DNA of 64,000 nt from assembly GCA_964016885.1 (NCBI GenBank), contig OZ024759.1:24924001-24988000 (forward strand), read 5' to 3'. This document shows, piece by piece, positions 1,557 to 39,585 of the stretch. Position 1 is the stretch's first letter; every line of letters starts with the position of its first letter. The DNA comes from Eledone cirrhosa. Lineage: Eukaryota. Position numbers and translations under genes: made by a program. The notes beneath the pieces were generated by a model. The model worked only from the letters and a program-made list of their open reading frames with translations. It did no database searches and had not been told where the DNA came from.

Positions 1557-1924
1557 TATATATATATATATAATATCTATATCTAAAATATAAAATTATA
1601 TTTGGGAAAAGTAAACAAGATAAGAAGAAAAAAATCTTTATCTATTGACTTTAACCTAATATATTCTTTCCATATACTGTACTGATTGTGTTGCTCTTTC
1701 TGTTTACCTTTTACACACATCACACATATTTATTTAGGTTTGTTGGTTCACCACTGGATAGAGCTGGTCATTCCATATGGTCAGCCTCGATGTAATATTA
1801 TGAAGAGCACTCAACGTAATGCAACTCACCTGTCTTCTTTTGTGTAGTTGGTGGTGCGAGTACGGAGTTAATTATTATAAAATAACAGGAGGCTGGACTG
1901 GTGTAATTCCTTAAAAGGTTTATT

Positions 1925-1982
1925 ATACTATGATCATTTCAATGACCGAGTTCAGTGTGAATCCGGTGACATCATCAGGTAT
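1925..1982 (-). ncRNA. Minimal type I hammerhead ribozyme motif (family A, left arm)
   Basis: Mirror image of 2148-2205. Confidence 0.7.
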
Positions 1983-2147
1983 TCGAAATATAACAAAGGA
2001 ATATAATAGACAAAATCCATGGGGCTGAAAATCAGAGACATGATGGCGGCCGACCAAGGTAGAAGCTGCTAAATGTTTGGTCACCCTCATGTCTCTGATT
2101 TTCAGTCCCATGGATTTTGTCTATTATATTCCTTTGTTATATTTCGA

Positions 2148-2205
2148 ATACCTGATGATGTCACCGGATTCACACTGAACTCGGTCATTGAAATGATCAT
2201 AGTAT
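2148..2205 (+). ncRNA. Minimal type I hammerhead ribozyme motif (family A, right arm)
   Basis: ATAC-CTGATGA-stem II (ACCG..TTCA cac TGAA..CGGT)-GAAA-TGATCA-TA-GTAT, then AATAAA at 2206-2211. Confidence 0.7.
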
Positions 2206-2496
2206 AATAAACCTTTTAAGGAATTACACAAGTCCAGCCTCCTGTTATTTTATATATATATATATATACATACATACACACACACATATACATACATATA
2301 TCGTGAGATGGATTTATGATATCATGACAATATAATAGTGAAAATTAAACTACTATTGATTAGTCAATATATCAATATTATGATCAATAACCCAAAACGA
2401 TCGTAAAACAATGAACCTATTAAGTACTAAACTTCACCTACTTTGTTGTTATTGTTCAACCTATGTATTTACACACACGCATATATATATATATAC

Positions 2497-3154: not shown

Positions 3155-3206
3155 ACATAATATATATAGAGATTACAATAATCAAAGTTCAGTTTAAGTC
3201 ATTTAT

Positions 3207-3255
3207 TTGCTTACAATTGTTTCCTCCAAACCGAGGTTTGGATTCTTCGGAGCAA
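3207..3255 (-). ncRNA. Minimal hammerhead motif, U4C core variant (family B, left arm)
   Basis: Mirror image of 4016-4064. Confidence 0.7.
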
Positions 3256-4015
3256 CTATTTACTGATCTATAACGTACTTGACCTCCTTTTCAACCCAAG
3301 AGACATATAAAACATATGCGCATATTGATCAACAGTGGGGTGACATTCATCAAATGATATAGCATGGCAATTTACATATACAGGTTACAGGATAAAAATA
3401 AAAATAAAAACAAAAATGAAAAGAACCGACTAGATACGGTATATAACTTGATTATATGCCGAACCATCTTGAGTTATACGATAGACACGTGTTCTATATA
3501 TTGCGTCTCATGGATTATGGTGAGCGAAGACAGTGGTACGGCTTTGCCTACGATACAATAAGGTTTATAGTATGTTGAAAGTTTCTGATATTTTGGTGTT
3601 TCCCTGCATCCGGGACTGTATATCATACAGATGTATGCGAATAAATGACTTAATAATTCAGCCCACATAATAAGATCGATTGCCTGCTTCAACTGCCTGA
3701 CCCTGCAAATATCATTCTGACGCACTCTAATCATGTATAAATAAGACACGCGTGCATGCTACACGTGAGATTGTTTCATACACAGACTACTCTAAACTTT
3801 CCTCTTGCTTTATCTTCATAGACTGCCAACGCTTCATGTTTATCTTTATTTTCATTTTTGTTTTTATTTTTATTTTTATCCTGTAACCTGTATATGTAAA
3901 TTGCCATGCTATATCATTTGATGAATGTCACCCCACTGTTGATCAATATGCGCATATGTTTTATATGTCTCTTGGGTTGAAAAGGAGGTCAAGTATGTTA
4001 TAGATCAGTAAATAG

Positions 4016-4064
4016 TTGCTCCGAAGAATCCAAACCTCGGTTTGGAGGAAACAATTGTAAGCAA
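4016..4064 (+). ncRNA. Minimal hammerhead motif, U4C core variant (family B, right arm)
   Basis: TTGCT-CCGAAGA-a-TCCAAACC tc GGTTTGGA-g-GAAA-CAATTG-TA-AGCAA, with AATAAA at 4064-4069. Confidence 0.72.
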
Positions 4065-4307
4065 ATAAATGACTTAAACTGAACTTTGATTATTGTAATC
4101 TCTATATAACTGCTCTGTAAAACAACTGATGTTATTACATTGAGCTATTTATCTTACTGGTAATAGGATAGTAATTAATGACTATCTTTCACTATTTAGG
4201 GTTTGTATAAATAATATATTACCATTAAAGGTTTTATTACATACATAACCATAAATAGTATCCTTAATACATAATATATATATATACATAATATATATAT
4301 ATATATA

Positions 4308-4415
4308 TAATTGTTTCTACTTTAGGCACAAGGCCAGCAATTACCCAGTGCATTACTGGTACTTTATTTTATCGACCCCGTAAGGATGAAAAGCAAAGTC
4401 AACATAGGCGGGATT
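4308..4415 (-). mobile_element. SINE family 1, 3' part
   Basis: Matches the recurrent GCCTTTCATCCTTACGGGGTCGATAAAATAAAGTACCAG...GGCCTTGTGCCTAAAGTAGAAACAATT. Confidence 0.85.
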
Positions 4416-4511: not shown

Positions 4512-5763
4512 AGACCAAAGTTCTAGTTTATAGGAAAGAAAATAAGGCGGCGGTCCCTTCCGGGAAGTGGCCATGCTCAGTGTGTAGGAATGGCGTAGGT
4601 AGAAACTCCATTTTGTGTCCCAAATGCAAAGTATGGGTGCATAAAAGATGTAGTGGGATCACAGGTAAGCTAACTAAGAACATAGATTTCACATGTGGCC
4701 GGTGCTCTGGTGCAATAAGTAGCAGCAAGTGCCCACAAAATACTAGCTATTTCAACTGCGCAGAGGGTTCTATAGAAATAGTGGACAGCTTCCGTTACCT
4801 GGGTGACAAAATCAGCAGTGGGGGAGGGTGCTCTGAAAGTACTGTAGCTAGAGTCAGAACTGGATGGAAAAAGTTCAGAGAGCTTATACCACTATTAGCC
4901 GCTAAAGGGTTCTCCCTAAAAACGAAAGGCAGGTTGTATGATGCCTGCATACGAACAGCAATGTTGCATGGCAGTGAGACCTGGGCATTGTGTGCAGAGG
5001 ATATACGCAGACTAGAGAGGAACGAAGCTTGCATGCTCCGCTGGATGTGTAATAGTAATATACGTGAACGGCAAAGCATAAGTGAACTAAGGGAAAAATT
5101 AGAAATAAGAGGGATCAGATGTTGTTTACTCGAGAGAAGGCTACGTTGGTATGGACACGTGATGCGCATGAAAGTCGATAGCTGTATAACAAAGTGCAGG
5201 GCAATAAAGATAGACGGTAGCCACGGAATAGGCAGACCTAGAAAAACCTAGGTAGAACTAGAGAATAAATTCCGAACTGATAAACTCCGACCTCACACAC
5301 TTACACCTCTCCAAGACAATGTCACTGGACCGAGACCTTTGGCGGTACTCAGTAATAGAGAAGACCCGCCTTACCTAAATACATAGTAAAACCTACTACA
5401 GTCAGTAGGCATCTCTAACAAAATACACCCCCGTCTCACCACCCCCACCCCATCCACACCGCCCCCTTCTATGTAAAGTTATGTTGGTGCCACACCATCC
5501 AGGCCGAAACAAATGAGATCGTGTAGGTGTCACGACAAAAAAACACACAGTCCACGCTGTAATGTGGCCGTGTAGGCAACACGGTAAAAACCTCCCAGAC
5601 CCACACTGTAAATGTGGTTGGTGTTAGGAAGGGCATCCAACTGTAGAAAACCTGCCAGAAAGTCCTATGTGAGCAAGACAATCACTCTTGCCTCAAGTGG
5701 GACTACCCCCGTCCAAACCCATGCAAGCGTGGAACACGGACGTTAAACGATGATGATGATGAT
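4512..5763 (+). mobile_element. RTE-clade LINE family A, 5'-truncated
   Basis: ORF 4580-5251: Cys finger, VDSFRYLG, LHGSETW, RRLRWYGHVMR; (GAT)n tail. Confidence 0.95.
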
Positions 5764-8650: not shown

Positions 8651-8767
8651 TTAACCCTTTAACATTTAAACCGGCCCTATGCAGCCAGAATTCTCTCACC
8701 TCTTTCTGTTCAAATTGGCCACTCATACTAATGTTAAGGTATAGTTCTCTTAAATGAGGTAAAGCCA

Positions 8768-10066
8768 GGAGTTTAAGACCGGATGCCAATGGGAACTCCT
8801 GTATGCTGATGACCTCGCACTCATAGCTGAATCTATGGTAGAACTAGAGAATAAATTCCAAACTTGGAAGCAGGGACTAGAAAGAAAGGGTCTCAAAGTC
8901 AACATGTCAAAGACTAAGGTCCTTGTAAGTAGACGAGAAAACAGAACCCAGATCCCCTCAGGGAAATGGCCTTGCTCAGTATGTAGGAAAGGTGTAGGTA
9001 GGAACTCCATTCTCTGCCCCAAATGCAAACAATGGGTAAACAAGAGATGTAGCGGGATCTCAGGAAGTTTAATTAAAAATGTAGGCTTCACATGCAGCAG
9101 CTGTGCTGAGACAGCAAGCAGCAAACAGCCACAGGAAACAAGTACCACCAATCTCTGGGAGGGCTCTGTAGAAACAGTAGACAGCTTCTGCTACCTAGGT
9201 GACCGAATTAGCAGCGGAGGTGGGTGTTCAGAAAGTACAATAACTAGGGTAAGAACGGGATGGAAGCAGTTTAGGGAACTACTACCACTGCTAGCTACAA
9301 AAGGCTTCTCCCTCAGAATGAAAGGCAGACTGTATGATGCGTGTATCTGAACAGCAATGTTGCATGGTAGTGAGACCTGGGCGCTGAAGGTGGAAGACTT
9401 ACGTAGATTAGAGAGAAACGAAGCCTGCATGCTCCGATGGATGTGTAACAGTAATATACGAGAACGACAAAGCATAAATGAATTGAGAGAGAGACTGAGC
9501 ATAAGAGGAATCAAATGCTGTGTGCAGGAGAGGCGGTTGCGCTGGTATGGAAATGTGATGCGTATGAAGGATGACAGCTGCATAAAAAGGTGCAGACCAC
9601 TAGAAGTTGATGGAAACCGCGGAGTGGGGAGACTCAAGATGACCTGGGATGAGGTGATAAAAGCCGACCTTACCCAATTACACCTCCCAAAGGCAATGAC
9701 ACACGACCGTGACTTCTGGCGTCACGCAGTAATACAGAGTACCCGACCTCCCATGGGTACAAGCTGAAGCATATAGACAATATGCCCTCACACCCCCCAC
9801 CGCAAGGTGGTCGTGGAGGTGCCATGGCAAAAAAGCACCCAGCCCACACTGTAAAGTGGACGTGTTTGGCGCCACGAAAAAGCACCCAGCGCTCACTGTA
9901 AATGAGGTTGGTGTTAGGAAGGGCATCCAGCTGTAGAAATCAAGCCAAATCAGTTCCTGTATGAGCAAGGCATGGTCAGCCGACTAGACACTGCCCACAG
10001 AAGGACAACCCGTCTAACCCATGCTAGCGTGGAGGAACGGACGTAAAACGGTGATGATGATGATGA
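8768..10066 (+). mobile_element. RTE-clade LINE family B, 5'-truncated, one nonsense codon
   Basis: ELLYADDL, Cys finger, FCYLG; CGA>TGA at 9348-9350 splits ORFs 8835-9350 and 9357-9767; (GAT)n tail. Confidence 0.95.
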
Positions 10067-20826: not shown

Positions 20827-21577
20827 TTAGGTTGTTCCGAAAATAATGGCCGATTTCAGAAACATAATTTTATTCTTGAAAAATTAACAACAGAAATGTT
20901 TTGATTAGTGAAAGTATGAGCCGTGAACATCTATACATCTCTGTCTATTGACTAATCGGTCAAGAAAAAGATCATTGGTGTTTCGCAGAAAGAGCATCGA
21001 GCACACTTCAAAACGCCGAACTTTTTGATTTTCATTGAGCTCATGCGGTACCCATTTATCGAGCTTTTTCACCTTACCAATCTTCTGCAGATGGTGTGAG
21101 ACCGTTGCAATACCGACACCAAGTGCTTGAGACATTTCTTTGACACTTTGACGTGTGTTTTGTTCAACAATTGCTTTCAATTGTTCATTGTCAAGACTGC
21201 ATGACTGTCCTCTACCTTCTTCATCTTCAAGGCTCTCGTCACCACTAGGGAATTTCTGAAACCACCTTCGTACTGTGCGATCACTTGTGGACTCCTCTCC
21301 CCATGCTCTGTTGATATTGGCAGCTGTTTGGAATGCATTGTGCCCAAGCTTGAACTCATGCAAGAAAACTAAACGAAGGTCCGTTTTTGTCATGTTCATA
21401 ATTAAGGGCGCCTATGCTTCAAGAATGTTTTCTGTCTGAAATAAGTAGAAAATTATTAAAGAGCATACATCTATTATTAAGTATGTCGGAATTCACCTAA
21501 AATATAATTAAAATACTATGATAAAATTGCGTTTCAAAAGAACACTTAGAGCGGCCATTATTTTCGGAACAACCTAA
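20827..21577 (-). mobile_element. Internally deleted mariner transposon
   Basis: 26-bp TIRs TTAGGTTGTTCCGAAAATAATGGCCG, TA on both sides, transposase ORF inside. Confidence 0.95.
20905..21399 (-). pseudogene. Mariner transposase lacking the catalytic domain (HTH + WVPHEL linker + C-terminal tip), 164 aa open frame
   Basis: FLHEFKLG..TVRRWFQKF..WVPHEL..FLDRLV fused in frame to NRQRCIDVHGSYFH. Confidence 0.9.
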
Positions 21578-23673: not shown

Positions 23674-26090
<2,417 letters not shown>

Positions 26091-26854
26091 TATATAATTA
26101 TCTATCTATCTACCTCACTCTAAGACAAAGGGCAAGAACACAAGATGTTACCTTATTCCAACCAAACCCCCCACCACCAATCACACCCAGCTGAACCTAT
26201 TCAACTCTTCTACTTAATTATTTGAAAGTTCAAATCTTGAATGGATCAACTTTTCCTTTCATCCATTCTTCCTGTGAATGATAAATTCCATTCGCATCTT
26301 GGGATTAAGTCCATCTCTTACTACCACCCTGATTACGTGTGGAGAAGTACCATAACCACGAAGACACGTACCTTCACTACCATTAGTAATTAGTTAATCT
26401 GTTTCTATAGTGACAATCATCTGATGAAAGAGTGACAAGAGTGATGTACGTTTTAAAGAAAAGATCAAGTGACTGAGAAAACATCCCAGCAAAGAAACTA
26501 AACAGAAACTAAATCATAACTAATCTCAACAACTAATCTCTTATCTTAAGATCCTGTCACCTTTGTTCTAATAAAATACATTCTTACCACTTTAATGTAG
26601 ACTTTGTGGATACAGCATGGCCAAACAGTTTAAGAAGTTTGCTTCACAATTGTTAGGTATTGGGTTCAATTCCAGTGTTTGGCATTTTTGGCATGTGTCT
26701 TTAACCATAGCTTTCGGTTAACCCATGACTTAAGTCTTAAGTTCAAACTCACTGTTTGACATTTTTAGCAAAAGGATCTTTCACCATAGCCTTGGTTTCA
26801 TCATTCATGTTGCTATATATATCTATATACATACATATACATATATATATATAT

Positions 26855-37437: not shown

Positions 37438-37779
37438 AATGTAATTCACAAAGGTTAGTTTCCAGGTCGTTCAACTACATAGCCAGTGAGTAAAACTACA
37501 TCCCTATTTTCAAAGTTCAGCTGTTGCAAGAGCAGGAGAGATCATCCTGTCGAGAACCAGTTCAGTTTAAAATGCATCTACAATTGTCGCCCTTGCTTCT
37601 GCTGGACACCGCTAGGTGGTGTTCTGCCAGTGTTTTGGCATAGCTATGGCTTTCTATATGTTTATTTATAAACACACCGTATTTCTTTATAAATACGAAA
37701 TTCAAATACATATTTGTAAACAGTTATGCTCGAAGCTAAATTCTAATTCTATTATATATATATATTTATATATACATAT

Positions 37780-39585
37780 ACCAAAAGATTGGTGCAGTAG
37801 CATCATTGTCAACTGCTACAAAGGTAAAGGCGATGCACTAGATAGAGGAAACTATAGAGGTATAAAGTTGATGGACCAGGTCATGAAAGTAACAGAAAGA
37901 GTTATAGCACAGCTGATTAGGGACCGGGTGAATATAGACGAGATGCAATTTGGGTTTGTTCCAGGGAAAGGTACCACTGATGCGCTCTTCCTTGTGAGGC
38001 AATTACAGGAAAAGTACCTAGCTAAAAGTAAGCCACTCTACTTGGCATTTGTCGACCTTGAGAAAGCCTTTGACAGAGTTCCACGTGCAGTAATCTGGTG
38101 GGCTCTTAGAAAACTAGGAGTAGATGAATGGCTTGTGAAAGCGGTACAAGCCATGTATAGGGGAGCAGTCAGCAAAGTTAGGATTGGCAATGAGTATAGC
38201 GAGGAATTTAGCGTACAGGTTGGGGTCCACCAGGGCTCTGTTCTTAGCCCTCTCCTGTTCATCATAGTCCTGCAGGCAATAACGGAGGAGTTCAAGACCG
38301 GATGCCCATGGGAACTCCTGTATGCTGATGACCTCGCACTCATAGCTGAATCTATGGTAGAACTAGAGAATAAATTCCAAACCTGGAAGCAGGGACTAGA
38401 GAGAAAGGGCCTCAAAGTCAACATGACAAAGACTAAGGTCCTTATAAGTAGACGAGAAAACAGAACCCAGATCCCCTCAGGGAAATGGCCTTGCTCAGTA
38501 TGTAGGAAAGGTGTAGGTAGGAACTCCATTCTTTGCCCCAAATGCAAACAATGGGTACACAAGAGATGTAGCGGGATCTCAGGAAGCTTAATTAAGAATG
38601 TAGGATTCACATGCAGCAGCTGTGCTGAAACAGCAAGCAAACAGCCACAGGAAACAAGTACCACCAATCTCTGGGAGGGCCCTGTAGAAACAGTAGACAG
38701 CTTCTGCTACCTAGGTGACCGAATTAGCAACGGAGGTGGGTGCTCAGAAAGTACAATAACTAGGGTAAGAACGGGATGGAAGAAGTTTAGGGAACTACTA
38801 CCACTGCTAGCTGCAAAAGGCTTCTCCCTCAGAATGAAAGGCAGACTGTATGATGCGTGTATCCGAACAGCGATGTTGCATGGTAGTGAGACCTGGGCGC
38901 TGAAGGTGGAAGACTTACGTAGATTAGAGAGAAACGAAGCCTGCATGCTCCGATGGATGTGTAACAGTAATATACGTGAACGACAAAGCATAAATGAATT
39001 GAGAGAGAGACTGAGCATAAGAGGAATCAAATGCTGCGTGCAGGAGAGGCGGTTACGCTGGTATGGACATGTGATGCGTATGAAGGATGACAGCTGCATA
39101 AAAAGGTGCAGAGCACTAGAAGTTGATGGAAACCGCGGAGTGGGGAGACCCAAGATGACTTGGGATGAGGTGATAAAAGCCGACCTTACCCAACTACACC
39201 TCTCAAAGTCAATGACACACGACCGTGACTTCTGGCGTCACGCAGTAATACAGGGTACCCGACCTCCCATGGGTACATGCTGAAGCATATAAACAATATG
39301 CCCCCCCCCCCACCGCAAGGTGGTCGTGGAGGTGCCACGGCAAAAAAGCACCCAGCCCACACTGTAAAGTGGACGTGTAGGCGCCACGAAAAAGCACCCA
39401 GCACTCACTGTAAATGAGGTTGGTGTTAGGAAGGGCATCCAGCTGTAGAAATCAAGCCAGATCAGTTCCTGTATGAGCAAGGCATGGTCAGCCGACCAGA
39501 CACTGCCCACAACAGGACAACCCGTCTAACCCATGCTAGCGTGGAAGAACGGACGTAAAACGGTGATGATGATGATGATGATGAT
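37780..39585 (+). mobile_element. RTE-clade LINE family B, 5'-truncated with uninterrupted RT frame
   Basis: PKDWCSS...NYRGIKL...LYADD...RLRWYGHVMR open to 39283; (GAT)n tail; starts right after a TA-rich run. Confidence 0.97.

What the first reader, a model, noticed from the sequence alone, without database searches (positions are those of the whole stretch)
1876..2254. Element A: 168-bp near-perfect hairpin with two outward-facing hammerheads
Seen: the element is only two inverted copies of a ribozyme plus poly(A)-signal module and a 43-bp spacer; 2 mismatches suggest it is young. Inference: read-through on either strand makes the antisense arm first, so the ribozyme would be sequestered in 168-bp dsRNA, a possible ADAR or Dicer substrate and a self-silencing design.
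Basis: partly seen in the sequence, partly recalled or inferred. Interest (0 to 1): 0.72.

Follow-up and report, generated by a model that had tools for sequence, protein, structure and literature searches.

The report
Head-to-head Penelope-like retrotransposon stub
This DNA hairpin is real, but it is an ordinary back-to-back insertion of two end-pieces of a common, non-coding Penelope-like jumping gene, likely made when both cut DNA ends were copied from the element's RNA at two fixed start points, and not a purpose-built self-silencing ribozyme switch.

Summary
Confirmed: 168-bp arms, 2 mismatches, 43-bp spacer, an outward-facing type I hammerhead motif plus AATAAA in each arm. But the insertion spans 1727-2254. 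The left arm carries a further ~149-nt family 'tail', and the spacer is the family's own conserved 5' stem-loop, continuous with the right arm. The family has 1,809 exact hammerhead-core matches in the genome and a non-coding full-length unit of ~2.2-2.5 kb. Both 3' ends sit in (TA)n, and 19 of 59 unselected copies have an inverted neighbour: the published Penelope-like layout. In 36 of 36 classifiable head-to-head pairs one arm is tailed and the other is not, and the loop follows either arm. This favours priming from both DNA ends over fold-back. 5' ends stop at one base, a likely transcription start (lead from earlier scan notes, tested here). 'Young' is not supported (P=0.11 against sister loci). 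Read-through RNA would bury the ribozyme, but this motif likely needs a dimer anyway, and copies do not pile up at its cut site. No autonomous partner was found, and expression is untested. The scan noted this kind of structure before on other DNA (582 notes).

The parts
1727..1875 (-).
   Evidence: 6 of 149 differences from the family majority; ends at the family's distal 3' end
1876..2043 (-). Left arm: inverted copy of the 168-nt pLTR core
   Evidence: 2 of 168 differences from the family majority
1925..1982 (-). Type I hammerhead motif of the left arm, predicted cut after 1929
   Evidence: descriptor hit at 1978(-); mirror of 2148-2205
1919..1924 (-). AATAAA downstream of the left hammerhead
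   Evidence: sequence; use as a poly(A) signal untested
2042..2088 (+). The family's conserved 5' stem-loop (12-bp stem 2042-2053 / 2077-2088); contains the 43-bp 'spacer' and is in sense with the right arm; the junction lies in ~8 nt of stem microhomology
   Evidence: 92.3% of cells paired over 23 copies, 3 of 12 pairs changed on both sides, G-U wobbles on the sense strand
2087..2254 (+). Right arm: 168-nt pLTR core ending at the family's proximal (tail-less) 3' end
   Evidence: 4 of 168 differences from the family majority
2148..2205 (+). Type I hammerhead motif: stem I 2148-2151/2202-2205, core 2152-2158, stem II region 2159-2189, GAAA 2190-2193, palindromic stem III 2194-2199, predicted cut after 2201 (AUA)
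   Evidence: core intact in 128 of 154 aligned copies; stem I pair 3 is T-A in 116 and C-G in 24
2206..2211 (+). AATAAA downstream of the right hammerhead
   Evidence: sequence; use as a poly(A) signal untested
2255..2300 (.). (TA)n/(CA)n microsatellite flank, the likely target; no clear target-site duplication
   Evidence: most sister copies also end in (TA)n

Best explanation
The hairpin is a 528-bp (1727-2254) head-to-head insertion of two end-pieces of a non-coding repeat family with the hallmarks of a non-autonomous Penelope-like retrotransposon, likely made in one event when a borrowed Penelope-type enzyme copied the element's RNA from both cut DNA ends, once from the far (tailed) and once from the near (tail-less) start point, and the two copies likely joined through the RNA's 5' stem-loop. 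Shown: family membership, boundaries, two discrete 3' ends, the one-tailed/one-untailed rule, a sharp 5' limit, the conserved stem-loop and hammerhead motif, and no long ORF in full-length units. Inferred: the RNA starts at the A of YC-ACTT four bases before the stem-loop; a Penelope RT/GIY-YIG protein acts in trans at (TA)n; one cDNA ran off the RNA's 5' end and its last bases annealed to the matching stem sequence in the other cDNA (8-nt microhomology here), which makes the arms abut the loop exactly. The ribozyme is a passenger of the pLTR; it would need a partner copy to form stem III, and uncut RNA was the template. Any dsRNA from read-through would be incidental.
For: 1,809 exact core matches, 0 for the reversed control. 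Nested 5' truncations running >2 kb upstream. Partial-tandem full-length units with pLTRs at both ends; no ORF above 149 aa in 1.5 kb downstream of the tail in 30 of 30 loci fetched from 66 matches. 3' ends of 59 unselected copies: 26 short, 25 long, 8 other; 19 of 59 have an adjacent inverted piece (1 of 60 loci skipped). Long+short in 12 of 12 (unselected), 16 of 16 (similarity-selected, includes this locus) and 8 of 8 (older subfamily) classifiable pairs; 14 further pairs had one unclassifiable end; none long/long or short/short. The arm reaching furthest 5' is the short one in 6 and the long one in 5 of the 12 unselected pairs, 1 tie (read). Arms of one locus share 11 minority variants in 1,992 positions against 0.56 expected between loci (15 loci). 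32 of 59 insertions have their 5'-most point within 18 nt at the stem base; of the truncated copies, 8 reach exactly ACTT and 1 goes one base further. 29 of 30 copies sampled downstream of the cut site extend back into the ribozyme. Literature: inverted 5'-truncated pLTR with a tail on one end and palindromes at the junction (PMC3846280, PMC8557442); both strands cut and extended, two RT start sites bounding the tail, uncut RNA as template (PMC11167929); dimer-type hammerheads in pLTRs (PMC4209133).
Against: No autonomous partner sharing this pLTR was found, so Penelope membership rests on structure, not on a protein. The tail (~149 nt) is much longer than the published 30-40 bp. Two cDNAs that overlap on one RNA need strand displacement or two pLTR copies, and this step is unshown. 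Shared arm variants could also come from gene conversion. The hammerhead has U-U where G10.1-C11.1 is usual (150 of 154 copies) and scores on no Rfam model. No TATA box at the usual distance and no clear cap-derived G support the start site. No read spans the whole hairpin.
Confidence: 0.7

Rival explanations
1. Same Penelope-like family, but the palindrome formed by self-priming: one cDNA folded back on the 5' stem-loop and copied itself, and the endonuclease then trimmed one arm at the AT-rich core/tail junction (the self-priming and EN-resolution ideas of PMC3846280 and PMC8557442).
For: The junction sits on a conserved stem-loop; arms share private variants; the short end is AT-rich.
Against: Here the loop is in sense with the tail-less arm, so fold-back of a target-primed short cDNA cannot make the tail. 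This orientation is as common as the other (6 vs 5). Several inverted pieces are tail only or start at scattered points (L018, L026, L086). The stem's G-U wobbles favour structure in the sense RNA, not in the cDNA.
Confidence: 0.17
2. One reading: a selected self-silencing module whose read-through RNA buries the ribozyme and feeds ADAR or Dicer.
For: The antisense arm comes first on both strands; the full fold abolishes the hammerhead stems; a 168-bp duplex is long enough in principle. Penelope copies give small RNAs in rotifers (PMC3846280, Discussion).
Against: Palindromic copies are a minority with variable arm lengths. Arm identity is within the range of sister loci. This copy lacks everything upstream of the likely start site. 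No host exon was recognised among 99 ORFs of >=110 aa in the window (read by eye), which does not exclude an intron. The ribozyme is likely inactive as a monomer.
Confidence: 0.07
3. A fold-back or MITE-like unit that spreads as a whole palindrome.
For: At least 9 loci have both arms reaching the same stem.
Against: Those 9 have different junction sequences, loop orientations and arm lengths, so each arose anew. The ends are asymmetric, and the family continues >2 kb 5'.
Confidence: 0.03
4. Assembly or library fold-back artefact.
For: No listed read or contig spans the whole hairpin.
Against: Unmirrored flanks, two arm differences, an asymmetric family-derived spacer, a tail on one side only, both ends at family-specific positions, and the same layout at unrelated loci.
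Confidence: 0.03

Closest known systems
Inverted-pLTR insertions of endonuclease-bearing Penelope-like elements (Adineta vaga Pen2/Pen2a/Pen3a, PMC3846280; general scheme in PMC8557442 Fig. 2)
   Same: Head-to-head 5'-truncated copy, palindrome at the junction, tail on one end only, partial tandems, microsatellite/AT-rich targets, Inr-like TCACT in the pLTR.
   Different: Tail ~149 nt instead of 30-40; no ORF in any full-length unit examined; no clear target-site duplication here; junction at a covarying 5' stem-loop.
Anolis Poseidon element PAc in vitro (PMC11167929)
   Same: Two discrete 3' ends bounding a tail, AT-rich target, hammerhead in the pLTR that need not cut the template.
   Different: In the parts read, that study does not link the two start sites to inverted copies; here the ends are ~149 nt apart and no ORF starts at the hammerhead.
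Minimal / palindromic-helix-III type I hammerheads of metazoan PLEs (PMC4209133)
   Same: Conserved core, 4-5-bp helix I, long helix II, small palindromic helix III, pairs on opposite strands 100-700 bp apart already noted.
   Different: U-U at the base of stem II instead of G10.1-C11.1; conserved C-C mismatch in stem II; AUA triplet.
Animal non-LTR retrozymes (bioRxiv 10.64898/2026.07.22.740005, abstract, introduction and part of the methods; PMC7229834, search listing only)
   Same: Non-coding, type I hammerhead, proposed PLE origin.
   Different: Retrozymes are short head-to-tail tandem arrays; this family is dispersed, with a ~2.2-2.5-kb unit, mostly as single or head-to-head stubs.
L1 twin priming (recalled, no call)
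   Same: Two primers from one target give an internal inversion joined by microhomology.
   Different: L1 products do not duplicate the 3' end; here both arms usually cover the same core.

Membership tests
Penelope-like elements (EN+) | Single ORF with telomerase-like RT and GIY-YIG endonuclease | tested here: not met
   No ORF above 149 aa downstream of the tail in 30 loci; six-frame reading of two full units shows none; tblastn of 234 locus ORFs against two bodies showed only short hits that I read as DNA-repeat overlaps, in the part of the output printed. So it is not an autonomous PLE; it is filed as non-autonomous, PLE-like.
Penelope-like elements (EN+) | pLTRs from partial tandems and frequent 5' truncation | tested here: met
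   L061, L062 and L063 carry pLTR-body-pLTR; nested truncations.
Penelope-like elements (EN+) | Adjacent inverted 5'-truncated copy, head to head | tested here: met
   19 of 59 unselected copies.
Penelope-like elements (EN+) | Optional 3' tail on one end of the insertion | tested here: met
   Two discrete ends; 36 of 36 classifiable pairs have exactly one tail; length ~149 nt, outside the published 30-40.
Penelope-like elements (EN+) | Type I hammerhead in the pLTR | tested here: met
   Descriptor and family covariation.
Penelope-like elements (EN+) | AT-rich / microsatellite targets | tested here: met
   (TA)n at the 3' ends of most copies printed (read by eye, not counted).
Penelope-like elements (EN+) | Mobilised by a cognate PLE protein sharing the pLTR | tested here: inconclusive
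   PLE-like ORFs near L076, L083, L088, L104, L116 and L132 belong to other families with different ends; no partner found.
Type I hammerhead ribozyme | Core C3-A9, G12-A15.1, U16.1, H17 and three stems | tested here: met
   Core intact in 128 of 154 copies; stem I pairs kept with a T-A to C-G change; stem III self-complementary (TGATCA 79, TGTGCA 24, TGTTCA 24).
Type I hammerhead ribozyme | Closing pair 10.1-11.1 of stem II (usually G-C) | tested here: not met
   U-U in 150 of 154 copies; other families in the window have A-U or A-A there.
Type I hammerhead ribozyme | Self-cleavage | not testable with these tools
   Indirect only: no pile-up of copy 5' ends at the predicted cut.
Non-LTR retrozyme | Tandem array of short units, each with a hammerhead | tested here: not met
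   Copies are dispersed; the tandem unit is >2 kb.
MITE / fold-back DNA transposon | Symmetric terminal inverted repeats and identical copies of the whole unit | tested here: not met
   Asymmetric ends; 9 stem-joined loci have different junctions.

The most novel reading that the evidence does not exclude
These stubs record a strict rule of Penelope integration: one enzyme dimer assigns its two RNA start sites asymmetrically, one to each cut DNA end, on a single RNA, with sites as far apart as ~150 nt. The covarying stem-loop at +5 of the transcript is a conserved RNA signal that also serves as the joint. This would explain inverted pLTRs and the one-sided tail in one step.
Probability: 0.45. 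Interest if true: 0.55.

Novelty: new member of a known kind. Interest (0 to 1): 0.28.

Why it matters
The locus itself is one neutral-looking stub among thousands. Its value is as part of a fossil record. How Penelope-like elements make inverted ends and the one-sided tail is still open in the papers read (PMC8557442, PMC3846280, PMC11167929). The 36-of-36 rule and the either-way loop give a sharp prediction for the existing in vitro system. The family adds an unusually long tail and a conserved 5' RNA stem-loop. The scan has already reached a similar reading in other genomes, so this locus adds a replicate, not a discovery.

Tried and rejected
Rfam: no hit at gathering score in 64 kb; the E-value hits are generic miRNA hairpins, rejected. 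Search for an autonomous partner: walking 5', ORF scan of 60 unselected loci, an older subfamily, 30 of 66 tail read-through loci and tblastn all found none. A Pfam scan of one neighbouring ORF gave only a weak DUF hit, so those neighbours are called PLE-like from recalled motifs only. A second ribozyme (HDV-like) in the 5' stem-loop was considered by eye from recalled topology and dropped. Cut RNA as template: 29 of 30 copies extend into the ribozyme, and of 20 sites with a non-A before the cut only 3 begin there while 17 are substitutions; starts after an A would be missed by that pattern. My first idea that the 5' pile-up is hairpin-induced termination was downgraded, because the limit is a fixed base four nt before the stem. 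Sequencing runs: no RNA holder listed, which is no evidence on expression; 8 of 13 listed runs were laid and none spans the hairpin; A>G/T>C differences in contigs come from other family copies and are not read as editing. Look-up of earlier notes by sequence: nothing. One search was a script error, rerun; one search was translated in the wrong frame and not used. Paper searches; 'Penelope + twin priming + inverted + tail' gave one unrelated review (listing only), in an open-access library that lacks most subscription papers.

Full report
OBSERVATION. The window is G000:C20:24924001-24988000 in a 3.0-Gb animal genome. Its repeats resemble those of octopods; this is recalled and not tested. Positions 1876-2043 pair with 2087-2254 over 168 bp, with mismatches at 1900/2230 and 2024/2106, around a 43-bp spacer; the flanks are not mirrored. 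Each arm holds a type I hammerhead motif facing outward (core at 2152 on +, 1978 on -) followed by AATAAA. Rfam does not score it. The description is therefore accurate within its coordinates.

BOUNDARIES. The right arm belongs to a dispersed family: 1,673 first-look candidates, 40 scored, the best at 96-98% identity. There are 1,809 exact matches of an 18-mer over the ribozyme core and 0 for the reversed control. Copies have two discrete 3' ends, mostly running into (TA)n: one where the right arm ends, one ~149 nt further on. The left arm has the long end, so the insertion is 1727-2254. The spacer is family sequence that lies 5' of the core in ordinary copies and is in sense with the right arm. 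Some copies continue more than 2 kb 5'. The longest are partial tandems, pLTR-tail-body-pLTR, of ~2.2-2.5 kb, with an internal ~300-bp duplication and sometimes an antisense SINE-like insert. No long ORF was found in two full units or downstream of the tail in 30 of 66 read-through loci. PLE-like ORFs beside six sampled copies have other ends and are separated by microsatellites or abrupt junctions. The family is therefore non-autonomous as far as sampled, and its partner is unknown.

CENSUS. I fetched the 60 loci that hold the first listed core matches on contig C1; one was skipped because no alignment covered its centre. Of 59, 26 end short, 25 long and 8 elsewhere, and 19 have an adjacent inverted piece. 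Where both ends of a head-to-head pair fall on one of the two discrete positions, one is long and one short in 12 of 12. The same holds in 16 of 16 similarity-selected loci including this one, and in 8 of 8 of an older subfamily (one of these counts a piece ~250 bp from the junction). Fourteen more pairs had one end that could not be classed. None was long/long or short/short; for the first 28, P=7e-9 under independence. The arm that reaches furthest 5' is the short one in 6, the long one in 5 and tied in 1 of the 12 unselected pairs. Arms of one locus share 11 minority variants in 1,992 positions against 0.56 expected between loci (15 loci; L059 was left out as a different subfamily). This points to one template or to later conversion.

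AGE. The 14 other loci differ at 3.1% between arms. Two mismatches in 168 is low but not unusual (expected 5.3, P=0.105). The locus is about as old as its subfamily.

THE SPACER. It is a 12-bp stem-loop kept across subfamilies: 92.3% of cells paired in 23 copies, 3 of 12 pairs changed on both sides, covariation score above 499 of 500 shuffles. That control ignores relatedness, and the count of such pairs did not exceed the shuffles (211 of 500 reach it). Slid controls pair 28-57%. Wobbles read G-U on the sense strand, so the structure likely matters in the RNA. 32 of 59 insertions have their 5'-most point within 18 nt at the stem base and 14 run further 5'. Among the truncated copies listed, 8 reach exactly ACTT and 1 goes one base further (two further rows labelled truncated, L058 and L108, are full-length). 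Earlier scan notes suggested such walls mark transcription starts. The wall sits at the A of YC-ACTT, like the Inr-like TCACT noted in rotifer pLTRs (PMC3846280, passage). I take it as a likely start site; no cap evidence was found. Nine loci, this one included, have both arms reaching the stem, each with a different junction, against 381 exact matches of that arm end.

THE RIBOZYME. In 154 ungapped copies from the fetched loci, the core is intact in 128. Stem I keeps its pairs (T-A in 116, C-G in 24 at the third pair), and stem III is a loop-less self-complementary hexamer. The base of stem II is U-U (150 of 154) rather than G-C, which may weaken it. Such motifs are described as dimer-dependent and weakly active (PMC4209133, Results and Discussion read). 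Of 30 copies sampled by an 18-mer downstream of the predicted cut, 29 extend back into the ribozyme. Of 20 sites with a non-A before the cut, 3 begin there. Uncut RNA was the usual template, as in vitro for the anole element (PMC11167929, main text read).

MECHANISM. Shown: family, ends, pairing rule, 5' wall, conserved structures. Inferred: a Penelope-type RT/endonuclease, acting in trans, cuts both strands in (TA)n and extends both ends, one from the tail end and one from the core end of the RNA. The anole protein cuts and extends both strands and starts at two sites that bound its tail (PMC11167929). Here the short cDNA ran to the RNA's 5' end, and its last bases could pair with the complementary stem sequence in the long cDNA (8 shared nt), giving arms that abut the loop. 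Fold-back of one target-primed cDNA cannot put the tail on the inverted arm, as seen here and in about half of the pairs. It survives only with an added trimming step (rival, 0.17). How two cDNAs overlap on one RNA is unexplained.

Read-through would indeed pair the ribozyme away. But palindromes are a minority by-product, this copy lacks the region upstream of the likely start, the motif is likely inactive alone, and nothing shows selection. No host exon was recognised among the window's 99 ORFs. RNA data were not available. Reads neither confirm nor deny the whole hairpin; the structural arguments make an artefact unlikely.

KNOWN AND NEW. Inverted pLTRs, junction palindromes, a one-sided tail and microsatellite bias are published (PMC3846280: passages and Discussion; PMC8557442: passages). 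Opposite-strand hammerhead pairs 100-700 bp apart were already noted (PMC4209133). PLEs are recently active in at least one octopus (PMC13282606, passages). Retrozymes differ in being short tandem arrays (bioRxiv 10.64898/2026.07.22.740005, part 1 of 5). Supplements were not read and may list this family. I did not find double-ended priming stated for Penelope in four searches of a library without most subscription papers. The scan's own unchecked notes propose it for other families (582 notes hold the search words, 8 shown). I had recorded the one-tail pattern before reading them. Verdict: real, a new member of a known kind, interest 0.28.

Noticed in passing
window 3163-3425 and 3846-4108: Second inverted repeat, 263 bp at 99% with 420 bp between the arms; possibly another head-to-head insertion. 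My hammerhead descriptor found no hit in it.
   Followed up: partly
window 14908(-), 19763(-), 60614(-), 43626(+): Other type I hammerhead-like motifs. The three on the minus strand have a palindromic TATATA stem III and a mismatch near the base of stem II like the one in this family.
   Followed up: no
many loci, e.g. L008, L027, L051, L061, L077, L079, L084, L094: The genome is rich in unrelated hammerhead-bearing repeats, many with palindromic stem III (TATATA, TGCGCA, CTAG, TGCA, TACGTA), clustered at shared (TA)n tracts.
   Followed up: no
L061, L062, L172, L177, L182, L184, L189, L190; window ~4310-4410: A very common SINE-like repeat sits antisense inside full-length units at two recurrent AT-rich ATAAT sites, one exactly at the distal tail end.
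   Followed up: partly
L076, L083, L088, L103, L104, L116, L132, L062: Long ORFs or fragments that look like Penelope RT or GIY-YIG domains of other families (recalled motifs; Pfam gave no clear hit for L132) lie next to family copies.
   Followed up: partly
tail, window ~1825-1830 (-): A GTGAGT splice-donor-like motif is conserved in the tail of the subfamilies printed; Penelope elements are known to carry introns.
   Followed up: no
L212/L213 (G000:C1:63056711-63058464): A head-to-head pair 1.7 kb apart, again one tailed and one not, sharing a private variant just before the ribozyme.
   Followed up: no
window 1651-1720: The left flank is itself the end of another high-copy repeat (deep coverage; the same sequence flanks L045 and L067).
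   Followed up: no
window 4514-5251, 8763-9767, 24163-26097, 37616-39283; 20905-21411: Fragments of LINE-type reverse transcriptase ORFs and a mariner-like transposase fragment (named from recalled motifs).
   Followed up: no
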